Below are positions 1,449 through 12,869 of a stretch of 36,794 bases of DNA, one piece after another (position 1 is the first letter of the stretch; each line of letters begins with the position of its first letter). Position numbers and translations under genes: made by a program. This DNA comes from a virus (Duplodnaviria > Heunggongvirae > Uroviricota > Caudoviricetes): IMG/VR virus record IMGVR_UViG_2713896909_000013, one strand, 5' to 3'. The notes under the pieces were generated by a model that saw only the letters and a list, made by a program, of their open reading frames with translations, was not told the origin of the DNA and did no database searches.

Positions 1449-2018
1449 CTATTTAACATACTTGACTGTTAAACTTATAATTTTACCAATTATTTCAATG
1501 TCTTCTATCTTACATTCAAAGGCTCTGTTTCCACCCTCGACGAAGATTCTTCCACCGGGTAAACGAGTAATGTCACGGATCGTTATTTCGCCATCAATAC
1601 TTATTACCCATTTACCATCACGTATATCATCAAATTCCTTATCACAAATAAATTCAGAATTATTATCTGTGATTACAAAAAGATTCTTGAATGCCGACGG
1701 TAGAAATTCTCTATCGAAAATATAAAAACCGTCTTCACACAAGGCCCCATCAGATAATACATATTTAGCAACTTCCATAGTATTTGTATTACCTGAAGTT
1801 TGCTTTGAACCATGCCCGGTTGTGAGCCAATTAAGCGAGGTGCCTGTTTCAAGGGCGCACTGGATTACCCATTCTGCTGGGAATGAGTCACGCATGTAGC
1901 GTGTGGCGAGTGTACTTTTAGAGATTCCTAAATGATCGCACAACGCCTGTCGAGTCTTGAATCCATAAGCTTCTACCATGCGCTCTATGGCGCCTCGTCC
2001 GCCTTTCTCCAAATTCAT
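1449..2018 (-). CDS. cI: CI-type immunity repressor (186 CI-like)
   Basis: About 190 aa with an N-terminal HTH-like region; sits between int and the divergent apl/cII genes as in phage 186; start set at the ATG at 2018 with RBS GGAGTGA. Confidence 0.8.
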   Translation of the reverse strand: MNLEKGGRGAIERMVEAYGFKTRQALCDHLGISKSTLATRYMRDSFPAEWVIQCALETGTSLNWLTTGHGSKQTSGNTNTMEVAKYVLSDGALCEDGFYIFDREFLPSAFKNLFVITDNNSEFICDKEFDDIRDGKWVISIDGEITIRDITRLPGGRIFVEGGNRAFECKIEDIEIIGKIISLTVKYVK

Positions 2019-2042
2019 GGTCACTCCAAGTGAACTTTTATC

Positions 2043-3948: not shown

Positions 3949-4802
3949 GCACCATCCTGAAATGGGCGGGAAATAAAACTGCCATAATGTCCGAACTAAA
4001 AAAACATCTTCCTGCTGGCCCGCGACTGGTTGAACCTTTCGCGGGTTCCTGTGCTGTGATGATGGAGACGGATTATCCCAGCTATCTGGTTGCGGATATT
4101 AATCCTGATTTAATCAACCTCTATAAAAAGGTTGCCGCTGATTGTGAATCGTTTATATCTCGCGCCAGAGTTTTATTTGAGATCGCAAACAGGGAGGTGG
4201 CTTATTACAACATAAGGCAGGAGTTTAATTACTCAACTGAAATTACTGATTTCATGAAAGCGGTATATTTCCTGTATCTCAATCGTCACGGTTACCGTGG
4301 TTTATGTCGCTATAACAAGAGCGGGCATTTCAACATTCCCTACGGTAATTATAAAAATCCGTATTTCCCTGAAAAAGAAATTCGCGCATTTGCAGAAAAG
4401 GCCCAGCGAGCAACGTTTATCTGCGCCAGCTTTGATGAAACGCTGGCGATGTTGAAGGCGGGGGATGTGGTGTATTGCGATCCGCCGTATGACGGTACGT
4501 TTTCCGGCTATCACACTGACGGCTTCACTGAAGATGACCAGTATCACCTGGCATCTGTTCTTGAACATCGGTCATCAGAAGGACATCCGGTCATTGTTTC
4601 TAACAGTGACACATCCCTGATCCGTTCGCTGTATCGCAATTTTACTCACCACTACATCAAGGCAAAACGCAGCATCGGTGTGGCAGCTGGCGAGGGTAAA
4701 TCAGCAACAGAAATCATTGCTGTTTCCGGGCCGCGCTGCTGGGTGGGATTTGATTATTCGCGTGGCGTGGATAGTTCTGCCGTGTACGGAGTACGTGCAT
4801 GA
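3945..4802 (+). CDS. dam: DNA adenine methyltransferase (Dam-like, N6-adenine)
   Basis: N-terminal AdoMet-binding motif (KWAGNK) and catalytic DPPY motif ([11 protein letters not shown]); RBS GGAGGTG before the ATG at 3945. Confidence 0.85.
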
Positions 4803-7213
4803 GTCATGCCGATATGAACAACTGCTGCGGCTTTAACGAAGCTGCCGCATCGTTCTCATGGAACAGCTCGAAAAAGGCCATTAACCCTTATCTGGACCCG
4901 GTGGAAGTTGCGCCGGTTTCTACGCTTTCAAACCTGATCACTCTGTACGCTGCCGATAACGAGCAGGAACAGCTGCGCCGTGAGGCGCTGAGTGATCAGG
5001 TCTGGGAGCGTTATTTCTTTAATGAATCCCGTGATCCTGTCCAGCGCGAAATGGAACAGGATAAGCTCATTAGTCGGGCAAAGCTGGCGCATGAGCAGCA
5101 GCGTTTTAATCCGGATATGGTCATTCTGGCGGACGTCAACGCCCAGCCTTCCCATATCAGCAAGCCGCTGATGCAACGTATTGAATACTTCAGCAGCCTG
5201 GGCAGGCCAAAGGCTTATTCCCGCTATTTACGTGAGACGATTAAGCCATGTCTGGAACGACTGGAGCATGTACGCGACAGTCAGCTATCTGCATCTTTTC
5301 GCTTTATGGCAAGCCATGAAGGGCTGGACGGCCTGCTGATCCTGCCTGAAATGAGTCAGGATCAGGTGAAACGCCTGTCCACCCTGGTAGCTGCGCATAT
5401 GAGTATGTGCCTTGATGCCGCTTGTGGCGATTTGTATGCCACCGATGACGTTAAGCCAGAAGAAATCCGCAATACATGGGAAAGGGTGGCAGCGGAAACC
5501 CTGCGTCTGGATGTCATCCCGCCTGCGTTTGAGCAACTCCGTCGGAAAAGAAACCGCCGTAAACCCGTGCCCTATGAACTCATTCCGGGTTCGTTGGCGC
5601 GTATGTTGTGCGCCGACTGGTGGTATCGGAAATTATGGAAGATGCGTTGCGAATGGCGGGAAGAGCAGTTGCGTGCTGTCTGCCTTGTCAGCAAAAAAGC
5701 ATCTCCCTATGTCAGCTATGAAGCCGTGTTGCATAAACGTGAGCAGCGCCGTAAGTCGCTGGAGTTTTTCCGTTCTCATGAACTGGTGAACGAAGACGGC
5801 GACACGCTGGACATGGAGGATGTGGTAAACGCCAGCAGCAGCAACCCTGCGCATCGCCGCAATGAGATGATGGCCTGTGTTAAAGGTCTGGAGCTTATCG
5901 CGGAAATGCGCGGTGACTGCGCCGTTTTCTACACCATCACCTGTCCGTCACGTTTCCATTCCACGCTAAATAACGGCAGGCCCAACCCAACCTGGACAAA
6001 TGCGACGGTAAGACAAAGCAGTGATTATCTGGTCGGCATGTTTGCTGCATTTCGTAAGGCGATGCACAAAGCCGGATTGCGGTGGTATGGCGTGCGGGTG
6101 GCTGAGCCGCATCATGACGGTACAGTTCACTGGCACCTGTTGTGTTTTATGCGCAAAAAAGACCGCCGCACCATCACTGCATTACTGCGTAAGTTTGCCA
6201 TCCGTGAAGACCGCGAGGAGCTGGGCAATAACACTGGGCCGCGCTTTAAGTCTGAGTTGATTAACCCGCGCAAAGGTACGCCAACAAGCTACATCGCGAA
6301 ATACATCAGTAAGAACATTGACGGGCGTGGTCTGGCTGGCGAGATCAGCAAGGAAACGGGGAAATCCCTGCGTGATAATGCTGAATACGTTAATGCCTGG
6401 GCGTCTCTGCATCGTGTTCAGCAATTCCGCTTCTTTGGCATTCCGGGGCGTCAGGCTTACCGTGAACTGCGATTGCTGGCTGGTCAGGCGGCAAGGCAAC
6501 AGGGGGACAAAAAAGCAGGTGCGCCGGTACTGGATAACCCGCGCCTTGATGCCATTCTGGCTGCTGCTGATGCTGGTTGTTTTGCCACCTACATCATGAA
6601 GCAGGGTGGCGTACTGGTTCCCCGCAAATATCACCTCATCAGAACTGCTTATGAAATCAACGAAGAGCCGACCGCCTATGGCGATCACGGCATTCGTATT
6701 TATGGCATCTGGTCACCTATTGCAGAGGGCAAGATCTGCACTCATGCCGTGAAGTGGAAAATGGTTCGTAAGGCCGTTGACGTTCAGGAGGCGGCAGCCG
6801 ACCAGGGCGCTTGCGCCCCTTGGACTCGTGGCAATAACTGTCCCCTTGCTGAAAATTTGTACCAACAAGGGAAAGACAAATCAGCTGATGGGGATACCAG
6901 AACGGATATCACCCGCATGGATGACAAGGAATTGCACGATTACCTGCACAGTATGAACAAAAAAGAGCGCCGGGAACTGGCTGCAAGGTTACGCCTGGTG
7001 AAACCGAAACGGCGTAGAGACTACAAACAGCGAATTACAGATCATCAGCGACAGCAGCTCGTCTATGAACTGAAGTCCAGAGGATTTGATGGCAGCGAGA
7101 AAGAGGTCGATTTACTCCTTCGCGGCGGCAGCATTCCGTCAGGAGCAGGCCTGCGTATTTTCTATCGGAACCAGCGTTTGCAGGAAGATGATAAGTGGCG
7201 GAACCTGTATTAA
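4799..7213 (+). CDS. A: replication initiation endonuclease, P2 gpA-like (rolling circle, HUH)
   Basis: 804-aa protein with an HUH-type motif (DGTVHWHLL, about 6124..6138); position and size match P2 A. Confidence 0.85.
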
Positions 7214-7305
7214 TTACGCGGGTTAACAATTCGTGCTCTTAATAATACCAGGTATATCAGGCTGATGAACGTAAAAAAACGTTTTACATCAGTAAGATTA
7301 TTATA

Positions 7306-7325
7306 TACTGTAAATATAAACAGTG
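7306..7325. promoter_or_regulatory. LexA (SOS) box
   Basis: TACTGTAAATATAAACAGTG matches the CTGT-N8-ACAG LexA consensus with an AT-rich spacer; about 40 bp upstream of the ORF at 7367. Confidence 0.7.
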
Positions 7326-7366
7326 GTTATGCGTACAGTATTGCTTGTGGTGTCATAGGAGGAAAG

Positions 7367-7555
7367 ATGCAGGACTATTTTTTGGAGTCTTTGAAGCTCC
7401 AGCGCATTGATTTTTTTCTTAAGCTTGTAGCGGCTAGTGAGTGTAGTGATGAAGAGAAGGGGCTGGCCCTGCAGTGGGTTTCTGAACTGACAGATGAACT
7501 CATGGCAAAAATCAGAACCCACGAATACAACCGCTCAATGGATGTCATCAGCTGA
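7367..7555 (+). CDS. SOS-controlled small protein, candidate Tum-like antirepressor
   Basis: 62-aa ORF with a perfect AGGAGG RBS directly downstream of the LexA box and upstream of a DinI-like gene; the antirepressor role is inference from the 186 Tum arrangement. Confidence 0.45.
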   Translation: MQDYFLESLKLQRIDFFLKLVAASECSDEEKGLALQWVSELTDELMAKIRTHEYNRSMDVIS

Positions 7556-7565
7556 GGTGACTTTT

Positions 7566-7799
7566 ATGCGCATTGAAATAATGATCGATAAAGAGCAGAA
7601 GATTAGCCAGTCTACCCTGGACGCCCTTGAATCCGAGCTTTACCGCAATCTGCGCCCCCTGTATCCCAAAACGGTAATTCGCATTCGCAAAGGTAGCTCT
7701 AACGGTGTGGAACTGACCGGACTGCAACTGGACGAAGAAAGGAAGCAAGTGATGAAAATTATGCAGAAGGTGTGGGAAGACGACAGCTGGCTGCATTAA
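7566..7799 (+). CDS. dinI: DinI-like protein
   Basis: 77 aa, MRIEIMIDKEQ...ELYRNL...LDEERKQVMKIMQKVWEDDSW resembles the DinI family in length and motif pattern; RBS GAGGTGA. Confidence 0.7.
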   Translation: MRIEIMIDKEQKISQSTLDALESELYRNLRPLYPKTVIRIRKGSSNGVELTGLQLDEERKQVMKIMQKVWEDDSWLH

Positions 7800-7829
7800 G
7801 AAACGTTGCCCCCAAGAGGATTCATTCTG

Positions 7830-8000
7830 ATGGGGGACTATTTTGGGCAACGAGTGAAACGAGGCGTTAGGTGGACGGCCATTTTGATAAGTGATCGTCC
7901 GCTTTTTGTTCTGAGTTCAAGCGATGGATTTAACACACTGGTTGAAGCAGAAGTATCTAAGTTCAATTTATATTATTTGAAGGGCACTGGTCTGATGTAG
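7830..8000 (+). CDS. questionable small ORF at the backbone/cargo boundary
   Basis: 56-aa ORF from an internal ATG with upstream AAGAGGA; overlaps an inverted repeat (GTTGCCCCC...GGGGG...GGGCAAC) that could instead be a terminator after the dinI-like gene. Confidence 0.2.
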   Translation: MGDYFGQRVKRGVRWTAILISDRPLFVLSSSDGFNTLVEAEVSKFNLYYLKGTGLM

Positions 8001-8086
8001 TACGATTTTTGCCGGAGATGGCATGTTCTATATTGATCTCATCCATATAATGATTGGTATTATTAGCTTAGTTTAAAGAGGATTGA

Positions 8087-9664
8087 ATGGATATCAACTA
8101 TGTTGTTTCAAAAATGGGGTTCGTAGATGATCTTATTAATGCAGGTTCATTTGATTCTGCCTATAAAAATGTAAAGGATATTCTTAACGGTATCGATGAG
8201 ATAAATACAATCAAAGAAAATAGAATAATTATATTATCTAATTTGGCCGGAAATCTTATTGATATCGGAAGTTTTAGTAATGTAAAAAATATAGCGGAGG
8301 AAGGCTTAAATATCTTTATAAACAATAAAAATGAATTTCTGACTATAATGAAAGAATCCTTATATTACTATAACTTGGCAAATGGAATGAGCGCAGTTCT
8401 TGATTTTAATCCTAATGACAATGCAGATATTGATAGTTTCATTAAGCTGAATGATGTAAAAAATAATTACTGGAAAGCGTTTAAACTTTCACAAGAAGAT
8501 GGATGGGTGCCCCCTGATTTAATAGTTAATCTAGCTAATGTATTAAAAAAACAATATCGTATATCTGAATCAATGGATTATTATGAACAAGCAATATCTA
8601 TTGATAACTCAATTCCTCAGGCGTGGGTAAACAGATCTGAGGCATTAGAATTGCTTAATGAATTATCTACAACATATACATATAAAATGATTAAAGAAGT
8701 TATTCGAGGTTATGAGTGTGCAATAAAGTCAGGGAAATGTTTTCCTTCATGGAAGGTTGCTCTTCAAAGAAAAATAAAGTACAACGAAAGTATATTGAGT
8801 GAATCATGTGTATATGGGATAGAGGATATAAGTACAGATGAAAGGCTCACGCAGGAGGAGTATGATACTTTATCAAACTACCAGAGGTTTTGTATAGATA
8901 ATAATCTAATGTTGTCTGATCATTCGCTATATTGCAATTGTTATGCGTCATCTAAAGATAATATAACTATTGCTACCACCGAGGAAGGTGTGTTTGGTGA
9001 TTTTATAGTGCCAATGGAAATGGTGTTAAATAGACTTAAAGCTGAGTATTCCTTAGCACGAAAAATGTTTTTTGAATATAAGGTTGATAGTGAGTTTTTT
9101 GATGAGGATTCGGAGGTATGTTATTCTGAATTGTATAATGGAGAAATATTGTATGAAAATGTTGAGAAGTTAAGGGTTGCATTTAGAGCTTGCTTTGGTA
9201 TCTTGGATAAAATAGCAGTTGCTCTGTGTCAATTATTTGATTTAAAACCAGATAGAGGACATATATACTTTCATAACTTCTGGCGGATTAGTGATGAAAA
9301 AAGAAAGCTTAAAATAAACAAAATAAATAATAAAGGATTGCTGGGTTTGTTTAGTATTGCTATGGATTTGAATGATAAAAATGGTGAGCTTGCTTTTTTT
9401 AAAGAATGGAGGAATGATTTAGAACATAAACTGTTAGTTATTCACGAGAAAGACATGTTAGTTGATTTATATAATTCTTATGGATTTTTTGATGAGGTGA
9501 GATTTATTGAGAAAGAAAAGTTTGAGAAACAGCTCTTACAACTCATGAAAATTGTGAGATCAGCCGTTATTCTTTTTGTGTTTACCATACGTATAGAGGG
9601 GAAAAAAAGTATTCCTAAAGATATGTTGACCATTAAAAATACCATCGAGAGAAAAGTATTGTAG
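8087..9664 (+). CDS. cargo protein 1: TPR-like N-terminal region with C-terminal HEPN-like domain (Rx4H motif); candidate abortive-infection RNase
   Basis: 525 aa, very AT-rich relative to the phage backbone; RBS AGAGGA and a TATAAT-like -10 upstream; RNDLEH (Rx4H) at about 9410..9427; TPR-like helical repeat signature in the N-terminal half. Domain calls are from motif reading only. Confidence 0.45.
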   Translation: MDINYVVSKMGFVDDLINAGSFDSAYKNVKDILNGIDEINTIKENRIIILSNLAGNLIDIGSFSNVKNIAEEGLNIFINNKNEFLTIMKESLYYYNLANGMSAVLDFNPNDNADIDSFIKLNDVKNNYWKAFKLSQEDGWVPPDLIVNLANVLKKQYRISESMDYYEQAISIDNSIPQAWVNRSEALELLNELSTTYTYKMIKEVIRGYECAIKSGKCFPSWKVALQRKIKYNESILSESCVYGIEDISTDERLTQEEYDTLSNYQRFCIDNNLMLSDHSLYCNCYASSKDNITIATTEEGVFGDFIVPMEMVLNRLKAEYSLARKMFFEYKVDSEFFDEDSEVCYSELYNGEILYENVEKLRVAFRACFGILDKIAVALCQLFDLKPDRGHIYFHNFWRISDEKRKLKINKINNKGLLGLFSIAMDLNDKNGELAFFKEWRNDLEHKLLVIHEKDMLVDLYNSYGFFDEVRFIEKEKFEKQLLQLMKIVRSAVILFVFTIRIEGKKSIPKDMLTIKNTIERKVL

Positions 9665-9986
9665 TATATTTTCATCGAGCGATGAAACGGTCTGTTTTTC
9701 TTTATAGTTTTGTCATAAAAAAGAGATTTCCTGCTTAAAATTTGGCTATTACAGAGCAACTATGTATGTTCCTCGCTCACAGTAGAGCTTCATCTTTGTA
9801 AGTCTGTATGTTTCGTTTTTCAAGTGGTCATTCAGATACGGACTTTCACTTCTCTTAGACAGTGCATGACTATGCTGCATGAAATCGCATGATCGTTTAA
9901 GGATCGTTTTTGCTAAGGCTCGCCAGAACTAGCGGGCTTTTACGTAGAACATGCAGGTGCATGAAAACCACTACATAAAGCGGGCA

Positions 9987-10005
9987 GGCGTGGCGGGGAT
10001 ACGAT
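9987..10005. other. cos: cos cohesive-end site (P2/186-type 19-nt sequence)
   Basis: GGCGTGGCGGGGATACGAT followed by TGCGCGC; closely matches my recollection of the P2 and 186 cohesive ends (GGCGAGGCGGGGAAAGCAC... / GGCGTGGCGGGGAAAGCAT) including the downstream TGCGCGC; sits in a GC-richer patch between the two AT-rich cargo genes. Confidence 0.6.
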
Positions 10006-10065
10006 TGCGCGCAAGCATAGATTCTGTAATATGTATGGCACATAGCAAATGACAAGGTGATTATT

Positions 10066-11805
10066 ATGCATGCGATCTTGAAACAATACGTCGAAGATCT
10101 TTCTAACCAATTTGCGATAGAAGAAGATGAACCGAAACTCTTCGAGTATTTTTGTAATTATGTTATTGCTTCTAAAAAGTATTTAGGACGATTTAGCCCT
10201 ATCGATATCACTACTCAAGAGGATGATGCCTCATTAGACGGAATTATCTTTCTTATTGATGGTGAATTAATAACTACTGTTGATGATGCTGAGGCGATAT
10301 TTAAAACCCATAAAACATCATTGCCAGTGGAGTTAATACTTACTCAGATTAAATCTGGTGAGGCTTTTGTTAAATCAGATATTGCAAATTTCAAGATTGG
10401 CTTGGATGATTTTTTAAGTCTTAAACCAAAATTACCAAATGGTATCTATAACACTCAAGCTATTGAAATATTGAAAGTAATATTTGCAAATGTAAAAAAA
10501 ATTAAAAACAAAAAACCATCGCTTACAGTTCATTATTGCACTAGTGGTACTTATGTTGAAGAGAGAGAAATTAAAGCTACATTTGATATAATTAAAAAAT
10601 CATGCTTCGATACTGACTTTTTTGATTCTGTTGACGTGAGACCTCTCGGGCGTAAAGAACTAATGGATATGTGGATATCCATAACCGAAAAAAATGAGGC
10701 TGAGTTACAGTTGATTGATTACATAGGTATCGAGGCTATGCCAGGTATCCCTCAATCATATATTGCAATTGTAAAAGCAAAGCATTTTATTGAGAAGCTT
10801 GCAAAAGATAGTGATGGAAAAATAAAAGAGTCAATTTTTGAAGAAAATATACGTGCGTTCTTAGGAAGTGATAATAATGTTAATAATAAAATATCCTCAA
10901 CTTTAGAAGATAAAAAAATAAAAGCAAAACAATTTCCAGTGTTGAATAATGGAGTGACTATAATTACTCCAGAGTTATCTATACAACCAAACACAAAAGT
11001 TATAAATCTTACAAATTATCAAATTATTAATGGTTGTCAAACAACTAATACACTCTTCCATCATTACGATAATTTAAATGATGATGTTGAGATTGTTGTC
11101 AAATTTATAGAGTCTCAAGATGCTGATGTTGCAAGTAGCATAATTGAAGCAACAAATAGTCAATCAGCAATTGAAGGAGCAGCGTTTTTTGCATTGCGTG
11201 AAAAAGCTAAAATGGTGCAGAAATATTTCGATCTACAGAGGAAAGACCCAAAACTGGAAAGTATATATTTTGAGCGGCGTGAAAATGAATATCGGCCATA
11301 TGATATACAATCTACACGTATATATGATATTAAAGAACTGGCTCGTTGCTTCATATCTGTATTTAAGCGGAACCCGCACAATGCTGCTAGATATGTTAAA
11401 AAAGTACTTAGCGAAAGCGATAATATAATATTTGGTGAGGCCGATAATGAGTGCGCATATTATACTGCGGCGTATATATGTTATAAGTATAATACTATGA
11501 TTAACGGGCGAAGAGAAAATGCACAAAAGTATAATAAATATAGATGGCATATTGCAATGTTATATCCTTGGGTCGTAAATAAAAAGGTTGAGAAAGTTGA
11601 ATTAAATTCAAAGAAAATGAGTGCCTATTGTGAGCGTATTCTTAAAACATTTTATAATGACAACTATATTAAGCATTTTTCAAAATGCCATGAGATAATT
11701 GATGCTCTTGCTTTAGATAATGAGAATGGTGTTACAGATGATCAACTAAAACGTGCACGATATACTACTAGTTTAATTGAAAAAGCTACTGAGATTTTGA
11801 AATAA
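10066..11805 (+). CDS. cargo protein 2: AIPR-like (abortive infection phage resistance family-like) protein with a possible PD-(D/E)xK-like N-terminus
   Basis: About 579 aa from the ATG at 10066 (RBS AAGGTGA); very AT-rich; NGCQTT motif at about 11029..11046, which I associate with AIPR-type proteins; N-terminal D...QxK pattern (FLIDGE...LTQIK) compatible with a restriction-endonuclease fold. Confidence 0.45.
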   Translation: MHAILKQYVEDLSNQFAIEEDEPKLFEYFCNYVIASKKYLGRFSPIDITTQEDDASLDGIIFLIDGELITTVDDAEAIFKTHKTSLPVELILTQIKSGEAFVKSDIANFKIGLDDFLSLKPKLPNGIYNTQAIEILKVIFANVKKIKNKKPSLTVHYCTSGTYVEEREIKATFDIIKKSCFDTDFFDSVDVRPLGRKELMDMWISITEKNEAELQLIDYIGIEAMPGIPQSYIAIVKAKHFIEKLAKDSDGKIKESIFEENIRAFLGSDNNVNNKISSTLEDKKIKAKQFPVLNNGVTIITPELSIQPNTKVINLTNYQIINGCQTTNTLFHHYDNLNDDVEIVVKFIESQDADVASSIIEATNSQSAIEGAAFFALREKAKMVQKYFDLQRKDPKLESIYFERRENEYRPYDIQSTRIYDIKELARCFISVFKRNPHNAARYVKKVLSESDNIIFGEADNECAYYTAAYICYKYNTMINGRRENAQKYNKYRWHIAMLYPWVVNKKVEKVELNSKKMSAYCERILKTFYNDNYIKHFSKCHEIIDALALDNENGVTDDQLKRARYTTSLIEKATEILK

Positions 11806-11811
11806 ATGGAT

Positions 11812-11842
11812 GCAGCCCAAGGAAGGGCTGCTAATTTTTATT
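11812..11842. terminator. bidirectional rho-independent terminator between cargo gene 2 and portal gene Q
   Basis: GCAGCCC-AAGGAA-GGGCTGC hairpin followed by TAATTTTTATT; lies between the convergent genes ending at 11805 and 11838. Confidence 0.6.
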
Positions 11843-12869
11843 CGAAATGATACGAAAAAAAATTGATAATGTCCTCACCTAACCAATCATTAATCTCTGA
11901 TATTCTTTTTTGTAAAGGTAATAGCTCATTCCTTACAAAAACCTTACTAGCCTTCTCCACATCTCCAAATCCCCCAACATTATTAGGCATTATTCCCATC
12001 ATCTGCGGCGGCACACGATGCGCCGCCATCATGTCATCTCGGCTGACGTTCTTAATATTCAAAAACTCATCCTTCGCCGCGACTTCTGACAACGGGATGA
12101 TCTGAAGCCCGTCCTTTTTGCCGTTAGGCGAGTACATAAACAGGTTGCGGAAATTGCCTGGTCCTTTAGCATTTTTCATCGCATTGCGGAGGTTGTTCAC
12201 GTCCTCCTGATTCTGCGCGGCGTCGGTCATGTACATGATGAAGCCTGCATGGCTGCCGTTGATGTAATACTTACGGCGGAACAGCGTTGCGGACTCGTTG
12301 AGCAGGGCGGACGGAATGGCAGAAAGATAACCGGGCAGGCCGTAGATCTCCTGATTAATATCCGGTTCCATCAGATGAAAAATGCTGCCTTTCGTGAACT
12401 GATACGGCTGGGTTGTCATACCGTATTGCACAAACCAGTAGGTATCCAGGTCTAATCCGCGTCGGGTGTATTTTGCCAGCGCAGGTTCAAGGGCGATCAC
12501 TTCACCGAAGCGGTTCGTGCGTTTCTCCAGATAGGCGTTGCCAAATACCAGATAGTCCTGCACAAAACGCGAAAAAGCCTGCTGGCTGAGCAGAGGATGA
12601 GGGATATAGGTACTGGTCAGAATGTTGCACTTTACTGCAATCGGGGAACTGTGATGCACGGCGGCGCGGAAGGTGCGAGCCAGACCGTCGAAACTCACTG
12701 GCGGCTCATACCAGCGATCTGTCTGTACGCATTGCACATAGTCCAGCAGTTCGCGGCGGTCAAGTACAGGAACGGGATCACCGAAGCTGAATGCTTCGGC
12801 TGAAGTCTGGCTTTTATGCTGGATCTGATTCGTCGCCGTAGTGCGGTTTTTCTTACTCTTTCCCATCAA
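11838..12869 (-). CDS. Q: portal protein, P2 gpQ-like
   Basis: 343 aa, matching P2 Q in size and position next to the large terminase gene. Confidence 0.85.
   Translation of the reverse strand: MMGKSKKNRTTATNQIQHKSQTSAEAFSFGDPVPVLDRRELLDYVQCVQTDRWYEPPVSFDGLARTFRAAVHHSSPIAVKCNILTSTYIPHPLLSQQAFSRFVQDYLVFGNAYLEKRTNRFGEVIALEPALAKYTRRGLDLDTYWFVQYGMTTQPYQFTKGSIFHLMEPDINQEIYGLPGYLSAIPSALLNESATLFRRKYYINGSHAGFIMYMTDAAQNQEDVNNLRNAMKNAKGPGNFRNLFMYSPNGKKDGLQIIPLSEVAAKDEFLNIKNVSRDDMMAAHRVPPQMMGIMPNNVGGFGDVEKASKVFVRNELLPLQKRISEINDWLGEDIINFFSYHFE

What the first reader, a model, noticed from the sequence alone, without database searches (positions are those of the whole stretch)
7260..7799. SOS-controlled module: LexA box, small ORF and DinI-like gene (a possible split Tum antirepressor)
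A near-consensus LexA box (TACTGTAAATATAAACAGTG) precedes a 62-aa ORF with a perfect RBS and then a DinI-like gene. The repressor here is the 186 CI type, which is not RecA-cleavable; in 186, prophage induction uses a LexA-repressed antirepressor (Tum) whose C-terminal part is, as I recall, DinI-related. This locus looks like that function split into two genes.
Basis: partly seen in the sequence, partly recalled or inferred. Interest (0 to 1): 0.5.

Follow-up and report, generated by a model that had tools for sequence, protein, structure and literature searches.

The report
SOS-controlled split Tum antirepressor module
This is the DNA-damage switch of a Fels-2/186-type prophage: a LexA-repressed promoter driving a small antirepressor gene and a DinI-like gene. 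The same split arrangement is already described for phages Fels-2 and PSP3, so it is real but ordinary.

Summary
A 17/20 match to the LexA consensus (7306-7325) is the only such site in the window. It precedes a 62-aa ORF (7367-7555) with an AGGAGG ribosome-binding site and a 77-aa DinI-family gene (7566-7799).

The interpretation also holds. A profile of the ORF62 family matches residues 3-46 of phage 186 Tum (hhalign 95%, E=3e-8), and the second gene matches Tum's C-terminal DinI half (41% identity). The repressor is 186-type CI.

It is not new. The 584-bp region is 97.8% identical to Salmonella phage Fels-2. PSP3 annotates the same pair as tumA/tumB. Lemire et al. 2011 state that Fels-2 and PSP3 have tum split in two, with the upstream gene as the antirepressor.

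My additions:
- The operator is probably a double, overlapping LexA site (second box 7321-7340), nearly the same sequence as colicin E1, cloacin and pesticin operators.
- The small antirepressor forms a stand-alone family that always sits after replicase gene A behind a LexA box, with or without a DinI gene.
- The ORF62 type tracks the N-terminal DNA-binding domain of CI, not the C-terminal domain.

Databases still call ORF62 "hypothetical". Function is inferred; nothing was tested experimentally. Interest is low.

The parts
7283..7311 (+). Candidate sigma-70 promoter (P_tum, counterpart of 186 p95): -35 TTTACA at 7283-7288, a 17-nt spacer, then -10 TACTGT at 7306-7311. An alternative -10 is TATACT at 7304-7309, with a 15-nt spacer.
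   Evidence: Read from the sequence. The layout parallels the annotated 186 p95 promoter, TTCACA-N18-TACTGT, whose -10 is also the left arm of the LexA box. The consensus scanner did not call it. No transcription start data are available, so this is inferred.
7306..7325 (+). Distal LexA (SOS) box, TACTGTAAATATAAACAGTG, overlapping the -10 element.
   Evidence: It is the only site in the window within 3 mismatches of the consensus; 0 were found in 100 shuffles. It is nearly invariant across 57 upstream sequence variants. It is identical in 66 of the 80 related viral contigs, and 79 of 80 keep a CTG-N10-CAG box there.
7321..7340 (+). Probable proximal LexA box, CAGTGGTTATGCGTACAGTA. Its left arm reads GTG instead of CTG, and it overlaps the distal box by 5 nt.
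   Evidence: The 35-nt double site aligns with the colicin E1, cloacin and pesticin operators. The Fels-2 version differs from the cloacin operator at 3 of 35 positions. [quoted passage not shown] In relatives the TACAG arm is conserved while the centre varies. LexA binding was not tested.
7357..7362 (+). Shine-Dalgarno sequence AGGAGG for ORF62.
   Evidence: Invariant in the related loci.
7367..7555 (+). ORF62 (tumA-like), the predicted antirepressor: 62 aa, RefSeq WP_001154434.1 'hypothetical protein'.
   Evidence: 98.4% identical to Fels-2 STM2728. The family profile matches 186 Tum residues 3-46, with PHROG cross-hits. AlphaFold2 predicts a two-helix hairpin with mean pLDDT 89.
7554..7559 (+). 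Shine-Dalgarno sequence GAGGTG for the DinI-like gene. It overlaps the ORF62 stop codon, so translational coupling is likely.
   Evidence: The intergenic sequence TGAGGTGACTTTTATG is identical in 76 of 80 related loci.
7566..7799 (+). DinI-like gene (tumB-like), 77 aa.
   Evidence: PF06183 E=6.6e-23. 41% identical to 186 Tum residues 71-145. 78% identical to PSP3 TumB. Matches PDB 1GHH at E=2.7e-6.
7804..7852 (+). Stem-loop followed by a T-run, directly after the DinI stop codon. It is a possible partial terminator, like 186 t95a, and it marks the border of the variable cargo region.
   Evidence: Folding shows the stem, but its energy is no better than shuffled sequence (z = -0.67). Related loci have a hairpin of different sequence at the same position. 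Homology to Fels-2 ends here. The evidence is weak.
1449..2024 (-). 186-type CI immunity repressor, the presumed target of ORF62.
   Evidence: PF07022 E=2.8e-33 and PF16452 E=2.7e-27. 33% identical to 186 CI. Annotated as 'phage repressor protein CI' in RefSeq.

Best explanation
This is the SOS operon of a Fels-2/186-type (Peduoviridae) prophage of E. coli. It is the inducer module that links host DNA damage to prophage induction.

Proposed mechanism:
1. In an undamaged cell, LexA sits on an operator that overlaps the -10 element and the start region of the promoter. The operator is probably two overlapping boxes binding two LexA dimers, as in colicin genes. Both genes are kept off.
2. DNA damage activates RecA, LexA cleaves itself, and the promoter fires.
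3. The 62-aa helical-hairpin protein, homologous to the N-terminal part of 186 Tum, binds the 186-type CI repressor and prevents it from holding its operators. CI is not cut by RecA. The early lytic promoter is thereby derepressed. The contact is most likely on the N-terminal DNA-binding domain of CI.
4. The co-translated 77-aa DinI-like protein corresponds to Tum's C-terminal half and to the short in-frame Tum products of 186. It most likely modulates RecA filament activity and so tunes the response. It is not itself the inducer.

What is shown here: sequence anatomy, homologies, conservation of the LexA box, and near-identity to Fels-2.

What is taken from the literature: Tum is an antirepressor; the PSP3 upstream gene carries that activity; lexA-null lethality in Salmonella is due to Fels-2.

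What is inferred: LexA binding at this site, the second box, CI binding by ORF62, and the domain contacted.
For: - The LexA box is unique in the window and not expected by chance.
- A canonical LexA box lies 15-28 nt upstream of every family member examined: 11 contigs with six distinct upstream sequences, plus 186 and PSP3.
- ORF62 family versus 186 Tum N-terminus: hhalign probability 95.1%, E=3.2e-8 over residues 3-46.
- PHROG cross-hits: the first 70 residues of Tum hit the ORF62 family phrog_698 at 6.7e-6. ORF62 hits phrog_8554 at 2.4e-8 and the TumA family phrog_1993 at 0.0022.
- DinI-like gene versus Tum C-terminus: E=3e-24. Pfam DinI: 6.6e-23.
- The position directly after replicase gene A is the same as in 186, PSP3 and Fels-2.
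- CI is 186-type.
- The region is 97.8% identical to Fels-2.
- PSP3 annotates tumA and tumB.
- Lemire 2011 describes split tum in Fels-2 and PSP3, with the upstream gene as the antirepressor (PMC3121763).
- The operator aligns with colicin E1, cloacin and pesticin operators. Colicin operators bind two LexA dimers (PMC2994835).
- Homologues of ORF62 occur without any DinI gene in ESSI-2, ev015, Yersinia YenM06.16-2 ('tum protein') and metagenomic P2-like contigs. The small protein is therefore a self-sufficient unit.
- Phages whose ORF62 is 98-100% identical have a CI N-terminal domain 69-78% identical to the window's, but a C-terminal domain only 25-41% identical.
Against: - Nothing was tested experimentally for this locus. 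LexA binding, SOS induction and ORF62-CI binding are all inferred.
- Pairwise BLASTP finds no similarity between ORF62 and 186 Tum or PSP3 TumA. The profile match to TumA itself is weak (E=0.005).
- No Pfam or NCBIfam model covers ORF62, and no solved structure matches it.
- The primary experimental paper (Bunny et al. 2002) is not in the held library. The antirepressor assignment for PSP3 tumA is a personal communication cited second-hand.
- The promoter hexamers are weak and were not called by the scanner.
- The proximal box has GTG instead of CTG and, in this window, a G+C-richer centre than in Fels-2.
- The link between ORF62 type and CI N-terminal domain rests on 8 related phages and is confounded by shared ancestry.
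Confidence: 0.85

Rival explanations
1. The pair is only an SOS-modulating accessory ('moron') locus. The DinI-like protein is the functional product, damping or stabilising RecA filaments for the host's or the phage's benefit. ORF62 is a small protein of unrelated function, and prophage induction does not depend on it.
For: DinI homologues under LexA control are common in prophages. In the Gifsy phages, non-polar dinI deletions had no effect on induction (PMC3121763), which shows the DinI part is separable from induction. ORF62 has no curated family.
Against: ORF62 is homologous to the part of Tum that is not DinI. It occurs alone behind a LexA box in several phages that have no DinI gene. 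The prophage has a 186-type CI without a recognisable autocleavage domain, so it needs some inducer.
Confidence: 0.07
2. ORF62 is an antirepressor, but its main target is not the resident CI. It could act on repressors of co-resident P2-like prophages or satellites (trans-induction), or on another host or phage protein.
For: An identical ORF62 is paired with CI proteins only about 40-50% identical overall. Trans-acting antirepressors are documented in Salmonella polylysogens (PMC3121763).
Against: The N-terminal domains of those CI proteins are well conserved (69-78%), so the resident CI is a plausible common target. 186 Tum is described as binding its cognate repressor (PMC3121763).
Confidence: 0.05
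3. The LexA-like sequence is a chance palindrome in an A+T-rich intergenic region, and the two genes are expressed with the early or late phage genes.
For: Intergenic DNA here is A+T-rich. The bare CTG-N10-CAG motif occurs 22 times in the window.
Against: No shuffle gave a site within 3 mismatches of the consensus. The box is conserved in position in every relative examined, while the flanking 5' UTR varies. The 35-nt site matches experimentally studied colicin operators.
Confidence: 0.02

Closest known systems
Salmonella phage Fels-2 STM2728 + STM2726.1 (split tum homologue)
   Same: Same promoter and operator, the same 62-aa ORF (98.4% identical) and the same DinI-family gene. DNA identity is 97.8% over 584 bp. 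Same position after gene A. Described as a split tum in PMC3121763.
   Different: The host is E. coli ST130 rather than Salmonella LT2. The centre of the proximal box reads GCG instead of ATG. The CI C-terminal domain is only 26% identical. The cargo downstream of the DinI gene is entirely different.
Phage PSP3 tumA / tumB
   Same: Tum is split into a roughly 60-aa upstream gene, annotated as responsible for UV induction, and a 77-aa DinI-like gene that is 78% identical to the window's. A LexA box lies 20 nt upstream.
   Different: TumA and ORF62 are barely alignable (no BLASTP hit; hhalign E=0.005). In PSP3 the two genes are in frame and separated by a stop codon; here they are in different frames, 10 nt apart. 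PSP3 has a single LexA box.
Coliphage 186 Tum (146 aa) and the p95 SOS operon
   Same: A LexA-repressed promoter whose -10 element is the left arm of the LexA box. The N-terminal region is homologous to ORF62 and the C-terminal DinI domain to the second gene. It lies directly after gene A and acts on a 186-type CI. 186 also makes a 77-aa DinI-only product from an internal start.
   Different: In 186 the two parts are fused in one polypeptide, there is a single LexA box, and orf97 follows in the operon. Here the defence cargo AbiU and a HEPN_LA2681 protein occupy that position.
Gifsy-1/-2/-3 dinI-gfoA/gftA operons (LexA-controlled antirepressors)
   Same: A LexA box, a DinI homologue and a small antirepressor in one SOS operon. 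The repressor is inactivated by binding, not cleavage (PMC3121763).
   Different: The gene order is reversed (dinI first). The antirepressor and repressor families are different. The phages are lambdoid rather than P2-like.
Colicin E1 / cloacin / pesticin double SOS-box operators
   Same: Two LexA boxes overlapping by 5 nt, with almost the same 35-nt sequence. They are known to bind two LexA dimers and give very tight repression (PMC2994835).
   Different: They control plasmid-borne toxin genes, not a prophage inducer. Their -35 and -10 elements lie upstream of the boxes rather than overlapping them.

Membership tests
186 Tum-type LexA-controlled antirepressor | Sequence homology to the N-terminal (non-DinI) region of 186 Tum | tested here: met
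   hhalign of the 36-sequence family alignment against 186 Tum gives probability 95.1% and E=3.2e-8 over residues 3-46. PHROG profiles cross-match. Pairwise BLASTP is negative.
186 Tum-type LexA-controlled antirepressor | Promoter overlapped by a LexA box | tested here: met
   At the sequence level only. There is a unique 17/20 consensus match at 7306-7325. A box is conserved in all relatives examined. Binding itself was not tested.
186 Tum-type LexA-controlled antirepressor | Location immediately downstream of replicase gene A in a P2/186-like genome | tested here: met
   Gene A lies at 4799-7213 and ORF62 at 7367. The order is the same in 186, PSP3, Fels-2 and metagenomic relatives.
186 Tum-type LexA-controlled antirepressor | Partnered with a 186-type CI repressor that lacks RecA-dependent autocleavage | tested here: met
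   PF07022 plus PF16452. Peptidase_S24 scores only 16.3 bits against a 23.3-bit cut-off. 33% identical to 186 CI. Non-cleavability itself is taken from the literature on 186.
186 Tum-type LexA-controlled antirepressor | One 146-aa polypeptide with the antirepressor region fused to a DinI domain | tested here: not met
   There are two ORFs in different frames, separated by a stop codon and 10 nt. None of the 87 family representatives matches the profile at its N-terminus and is long enough to carry a DinI domain; the few proteins longer than 120 aa match only at their C-terminal end or through repeats. This corresponds to the PSP3/Fels-2 split form.
186 Tum-type LexA-controlled antirepressor | Binds CI and prevents operator binding; required for SOS induction | not testable with these tools
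   Known for 186 Tum and reported for PSP3 tumA (PMC3121763). Not tested for this protein.
DinI family (PF06183) | Match to the DinI profile above the curated threshold | tested here: met
   81.3 bits against a 24.2-bit cut-off, E=6.6e-23. PDB 1GHH at E=2.7e-6. The NCBIfam DinI equivalog scores below its cut-off (42.7 against 111 bits), so this is DinI-like and not host DinI itself.
DinI family (PF06183) | Binds RecA filaments and modulates co-protease activity | not testable with these tools
   Inferred from family membership only.
Colicin-type double SOS operator | Two 20-nt LexA boxes overlapping by about 5 nt | tested here: met
   7306-7325 and 7321-7340. They align with the cea, cloacin and pst operators.
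Colicin-type double SOS operator | Occupancy by two LexA dimers | not testable with these tools
   Described for colicin operators (PMC2994835). Here the proximal box is degenerate (GTG for CTG).

The most novel reading that the evidence does not exclude
The most novel reading not excluded has two parts.

First, the Fels-2-type tum promoter may carry a colicin-type double LexA operator of shared origin with Col and pesticin plasmids. That would make induction of these prophages unusually tight and all-or-none.

Second, the 62-aa antirepressor may recognise the conserved N-terminal DNA-binding domain of CI. One invariant Tum would then inactivate many CI variants with divergent C-terminal domains. 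SOS-triggered cross-induction among co-resident P2-like prophages in E. coli, Klebsiella and Salmonella would follow.
Probability: 0.25. Interest if true: 0.4.

Novelty: already known. Interest (0 to 1): 0.15.

Why it matters
The module explains how this prophage senses DNA damage even though its repressor cannot be cut by RecA. A match to window 7214-12000, which includes this module, is found in 1281 of 5426 complete E. coli genomes (most matches cover only part of the query, and which part was not checked). The module also occurs in many Klebsiella and Salmonella prophages.

The practical value is for annotation. The 62-aa gene is still labelled 'hypothetical protein' in RefSeq, 'unknown function' in PHROGs, and sometimes 'levan regulatory protein'. 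It has no Pfam or NCBIfam model. The literature and the profile evidence here both support naming it a Tum-type (TumA) antirepressor.

The module also marks the left border of a known variable cargo site in P2-like phages. In this window that site holds AbiU and a HEPN protein.

Tried and rejected
- Pairwise BLASTP of ORF62 against 186 Tum and PSP3 TumA, and of TumA against Tum, gave no alignment. Only profiles reveal the relationship.
- A shallow profile of close relatives (A1) gave just 23.6% hhalign probability. The diverse alignment A3 was needed.
- Pfam, NCBIfam and PADLOC have no model for ORF62.
- The PDB sequence search for the family was empty. Foldseek of the AlphaFold2 model gave no hit below E=0.001, only generic helical hairpins.
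- The representative-library search found no Tum-like protein that joins the ORF62 region at its N-terminus to a DinI domain. It therefore did not bridge to 186 Tum directly.
- The promoter scanner did not call P_tum. The promoter assignment rests on analogy with 186 p95.
- The hairpin after the DinI gene folds no better than shuffled sequence, so I list it only as a possible terminator.
- The count of 17 synonymous against 2 non-synonymous changes in ORF62 across 80 viral contigs is biased. Those contigs were selected for the highest protein identity, so I do not use it as evidence of selection.
- Bunny et al. 2002 (PMC151935) is not held. My recollection of its abstract is that the Fels-2 tum homologue was responsible for lexA-null lethality. 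That is memory, not a tool result.
The tool-based DinI evidence is.

Full report
**What is in the sequence**

The window is a complete-looking P2/186-like prophage. It is 100% identical to E. coli strain ST130 (NZ_CP043478.1), where it is integrated next to rcdA.

The left part runs in this order:
- integrase
- a 186-type CI repressor (1449-2024, minus strand; PF07022 plus PF16452)
- an Apl/Cox-like gene, cII and fil
- a methylase
- replicase gene A (4799-7213)

The finding lies in the 150-nt gap after gene A. The sequence TACTGTAAATATAAACAGTG occupies 7306-7325. It matches the LexA consensus at 17 of 20 positions. It is the only site in the window within three mismatches, against none in 100 shuffles. 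The bare CTG-N10-CAG motif is too common to be informative (22 sites against 9.7 expected).

A strong ribosome-binding site (AGGAGG, 7357-7362) precedes a 62-codon ORF (7367-7555). Its stop codon overlaps a second ribosome-binding site (GAGGTG). A 77-codon gene (7566-7799) follows in another frame. That gene is a clear DinI-family member: PF06183 E=6.6e-23 and PDB 1GHH E=2.7e-6.

**Is the small ORF related to Tum?**

Phage 186 has its SOS operon in exactly this position. The annotated p95 promoter (TTCACA-N18-TACTGT) uses the left arm of a LexA box as its -10 element, and tum follows.

The window's DinI-like protein aligns with Tum residues 71-145 (41% identity, E=3e-24).

ORF62 gives no BLASTP alignment with Tum or with PSP3 TumA. 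Profiles do show the relationship:
- The first 70 residues of Tum hit phrog_698, the ORF62 family, at 6.7e-6.
- ORF62 hits phrog_8554 at 2.4e-8. Tum hits the same family at 3e-12.
- ORF62 hits phrog_1993, the TumA family, at 0.0022 (all).

A search of 1.8 billion representative proteins returned 87 relatives, nearly all 50-100 aa. A 36-member alignment of the diverse ones (A3) aligns with 186 Tum residues 3-46 at 95.1% probability, E=3.2e-8. The shared pattern is E-x4-(Q/E)R(I/V)-x7-V/T-x4-C-x3-D(K/R)-x-(L/I)A, followed by an (A/S)E(L/I) motif a few residues later.

AlphaFold2 predicts a two-helix hairpin (helices 2-23 and 28-61, mean pLDDT 89) with the conserved Cys in the turn. No solved structure resembles it specifically.

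**Comparative evidence**

Every family member I looked at sits immediately after a P2 gpA-type replicase. Each has a canonical TACTG-N10-CAGT box 15-28 nt before its start codon. This covers 11 contigs with six distinct upstream sequences, plus 186 and PSP3.

A DinI gene follows in some, namely the window's clade and the P0144 clade. It is absent in others: Cronobacter phage ESSI-2, Escherichia phage ev015, Yersinia phage YenM06.16-2 (where the gene is annotated 'tum protein'), and the P0146 and P0181 contigs.

The small protein is therefore the constant, LexA-controlled unit, and the DinI gene is an optional passenger. That fits the assignment of antirepressor activity to the upstream gene. 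In 80 close viral contigs the LexA box, both ribosome-binding sites and the 10-nt junction are almost invariant, while the 5' UTR varies.

**It is already known**

The 584 bp from the end of gene A to the DinI stop codon are 97.8% identical to Salmonella phage Fels-2. There the genes are STM2728 ('hypothetical', 62 aa, 98.4% identical) and STM2726.1 ('DinI family; similar to TumB of PSP3').

The PSP3 GenBank record names the pair tumA ('similar to 5' end 186 tum; UV induction of prophage') and tumB ('similar to dinI and 3' end of 186 tum').

Lemire et al. 2011 write that Tum looks like a fusion of an antirepressor and DinI. [quoted passage not shown] Christie cited in Bunny et al. 2002 (PMC3121763).

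Bunny et al. [quoted passage not shown] The paper itself is not held.

**What I can add**

(a) The operator is probably double. Directly after the first box comes CAGTGGTTATGCGTACAGTA (7321-7340), sharing 5 nt with it.

A 47-nt query from the Fels-2 operator matches 1212 plasmid records. The three I inspected lie just upstream of the colicin E1, cloacin and pesticin genes. In the alignment, the 35-nt double site of Fels-2 differs from the cloacin operator at only 3 positions.

[quoted passage not shown] 186, PSP3 and the other relatives have a single box, so this is specific to the Fels-2 lineage. It would give very tight repression of a lethal inducer. In relatives the TACAG arm of the second box is conserved while its centre varies. 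Binding is untested.

(b) ORF62 and CI evolve at very different rates. Phages with a 98-100% identical ORF62 (Fels-2, Cartapus, 4LV2017, Kp4846-2, ST15-OXA48phi14.1) have CI proteins only 39-50% identical to the window's overall.

Split by domain, the N-terminal helix-turn-helix domain is 69-78% identical and the C-terminal domain only 25-41%. 186 and PSP3, which have other Tum N-types, score 40-49% and 29-31%.

The antirepressor type thus follows the DNA-binding domain, which suggests that is what it contacts. The sample is small and confounded by shared ancestry, so this is a hypothesis.

(c) The DinI half is far better conserved than the antirepressor half. It is 78% identical between the window and PSP3, whereas ORF62 and TumA are barely alignable. 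This is consistent with the two parts having different partners: RecA, which is conserved, and CI, which is variable.

**Mechanism, with status of each step**

- LexA represses P_tum. This is inferred from sequence and from 186.
- SOS removes LexA. This is established biology.
- ORF62 binds CI and blocks operator binding. This is by homology to Tum and from the PSP3 report; it is not tested here.
- The DinI-like protein modulates RecA and thus the amplitude or duration of induction. This is by family membership and from the 186 annotation of short Tum products.

I put 0.85 on this overall picture. The rivals are a pure DinI accessory locus, a non-cognate target for ORF62, and a chance LexA box. 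Each is contradicted by the comparative data, and together they get about 0.14.

**Verdict**

It is already described for Fels-2 and PSP3, so novelty is 'already known' and interest is low. The residual value is in annotation and in two testable side observations: the colicin-type double operator, and the N-terminal domain of CI as the likely target.

Noticed in passing
window 8087-11805: Two A+T-rich cargo genes (about 30% GC against about 53% in the phage backbone) fill the variable site between the DinI-like gene and the portal gene. One is a 525-aa TPR plus HEPN_LA2681 protein. The other is a 582-aa AIPR protein that matches PADLOC AbiU at 2.7e-107. Only 1 of 5426 complete E. coli genomes has this exact pair. 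Other genomes combine each gene with different partners.
   Followed up: partly
window 7306-7340; L096-L098 around position 1200-1245: The P_tum operator of the Fels-2 lineage is nearly the same 35-nt sequence as the double SOS-box operators of the colicin E1, cloacin and pesticin genes. A 47-nt operator query matched 1212 plasmid records. This suggests either a shared origin or a very strong shared constraint.
   Followed up: partly
window 7804-7852 and the equivalent position in L004-L083: A stem-loop sits directly after the DinI stop codon, exactly where homology between relatives ends. Different loci have different stem sequences at this position (for example GCTGGCGTC.../...GGCGTCAGC against GCCCCCA.../...TGGGGGC). 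It could be a partial terminator like 186 t95a. If so, SOS-driven read-through into the cargo genes is possible.
   Followed up: partly
window 7265-7366: The open frame of ORF62 extends upstream to an ATG at 7265, across the promoter and the LexA box. Many database entries for this gene are therefore 87-101 aa long, with spurious N-terminal extensions.
   Followed up: yes
L003 1219-2079 (PSP3 cI); L100 (Klebsiella phage 4LV2017 cI): The PSP3 CI is 286 aa and carries two tandem copies of the N-terminal helix-turn-helix domain. The 4LV2017 CI reading frame also shows a second partial N-terminal-domain copy upstream.
   Followed up: no
window 1449-2024 compared with L099, L101-L104: CI repressors of phages that share the same ORF62 fall into at least two length classes, about 190-198 aa and about 210 aa. 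The longer class has an extra linker of about 18 residues between the domains, and the C-terminal domains are strongly divergent.
   Followed up: partly
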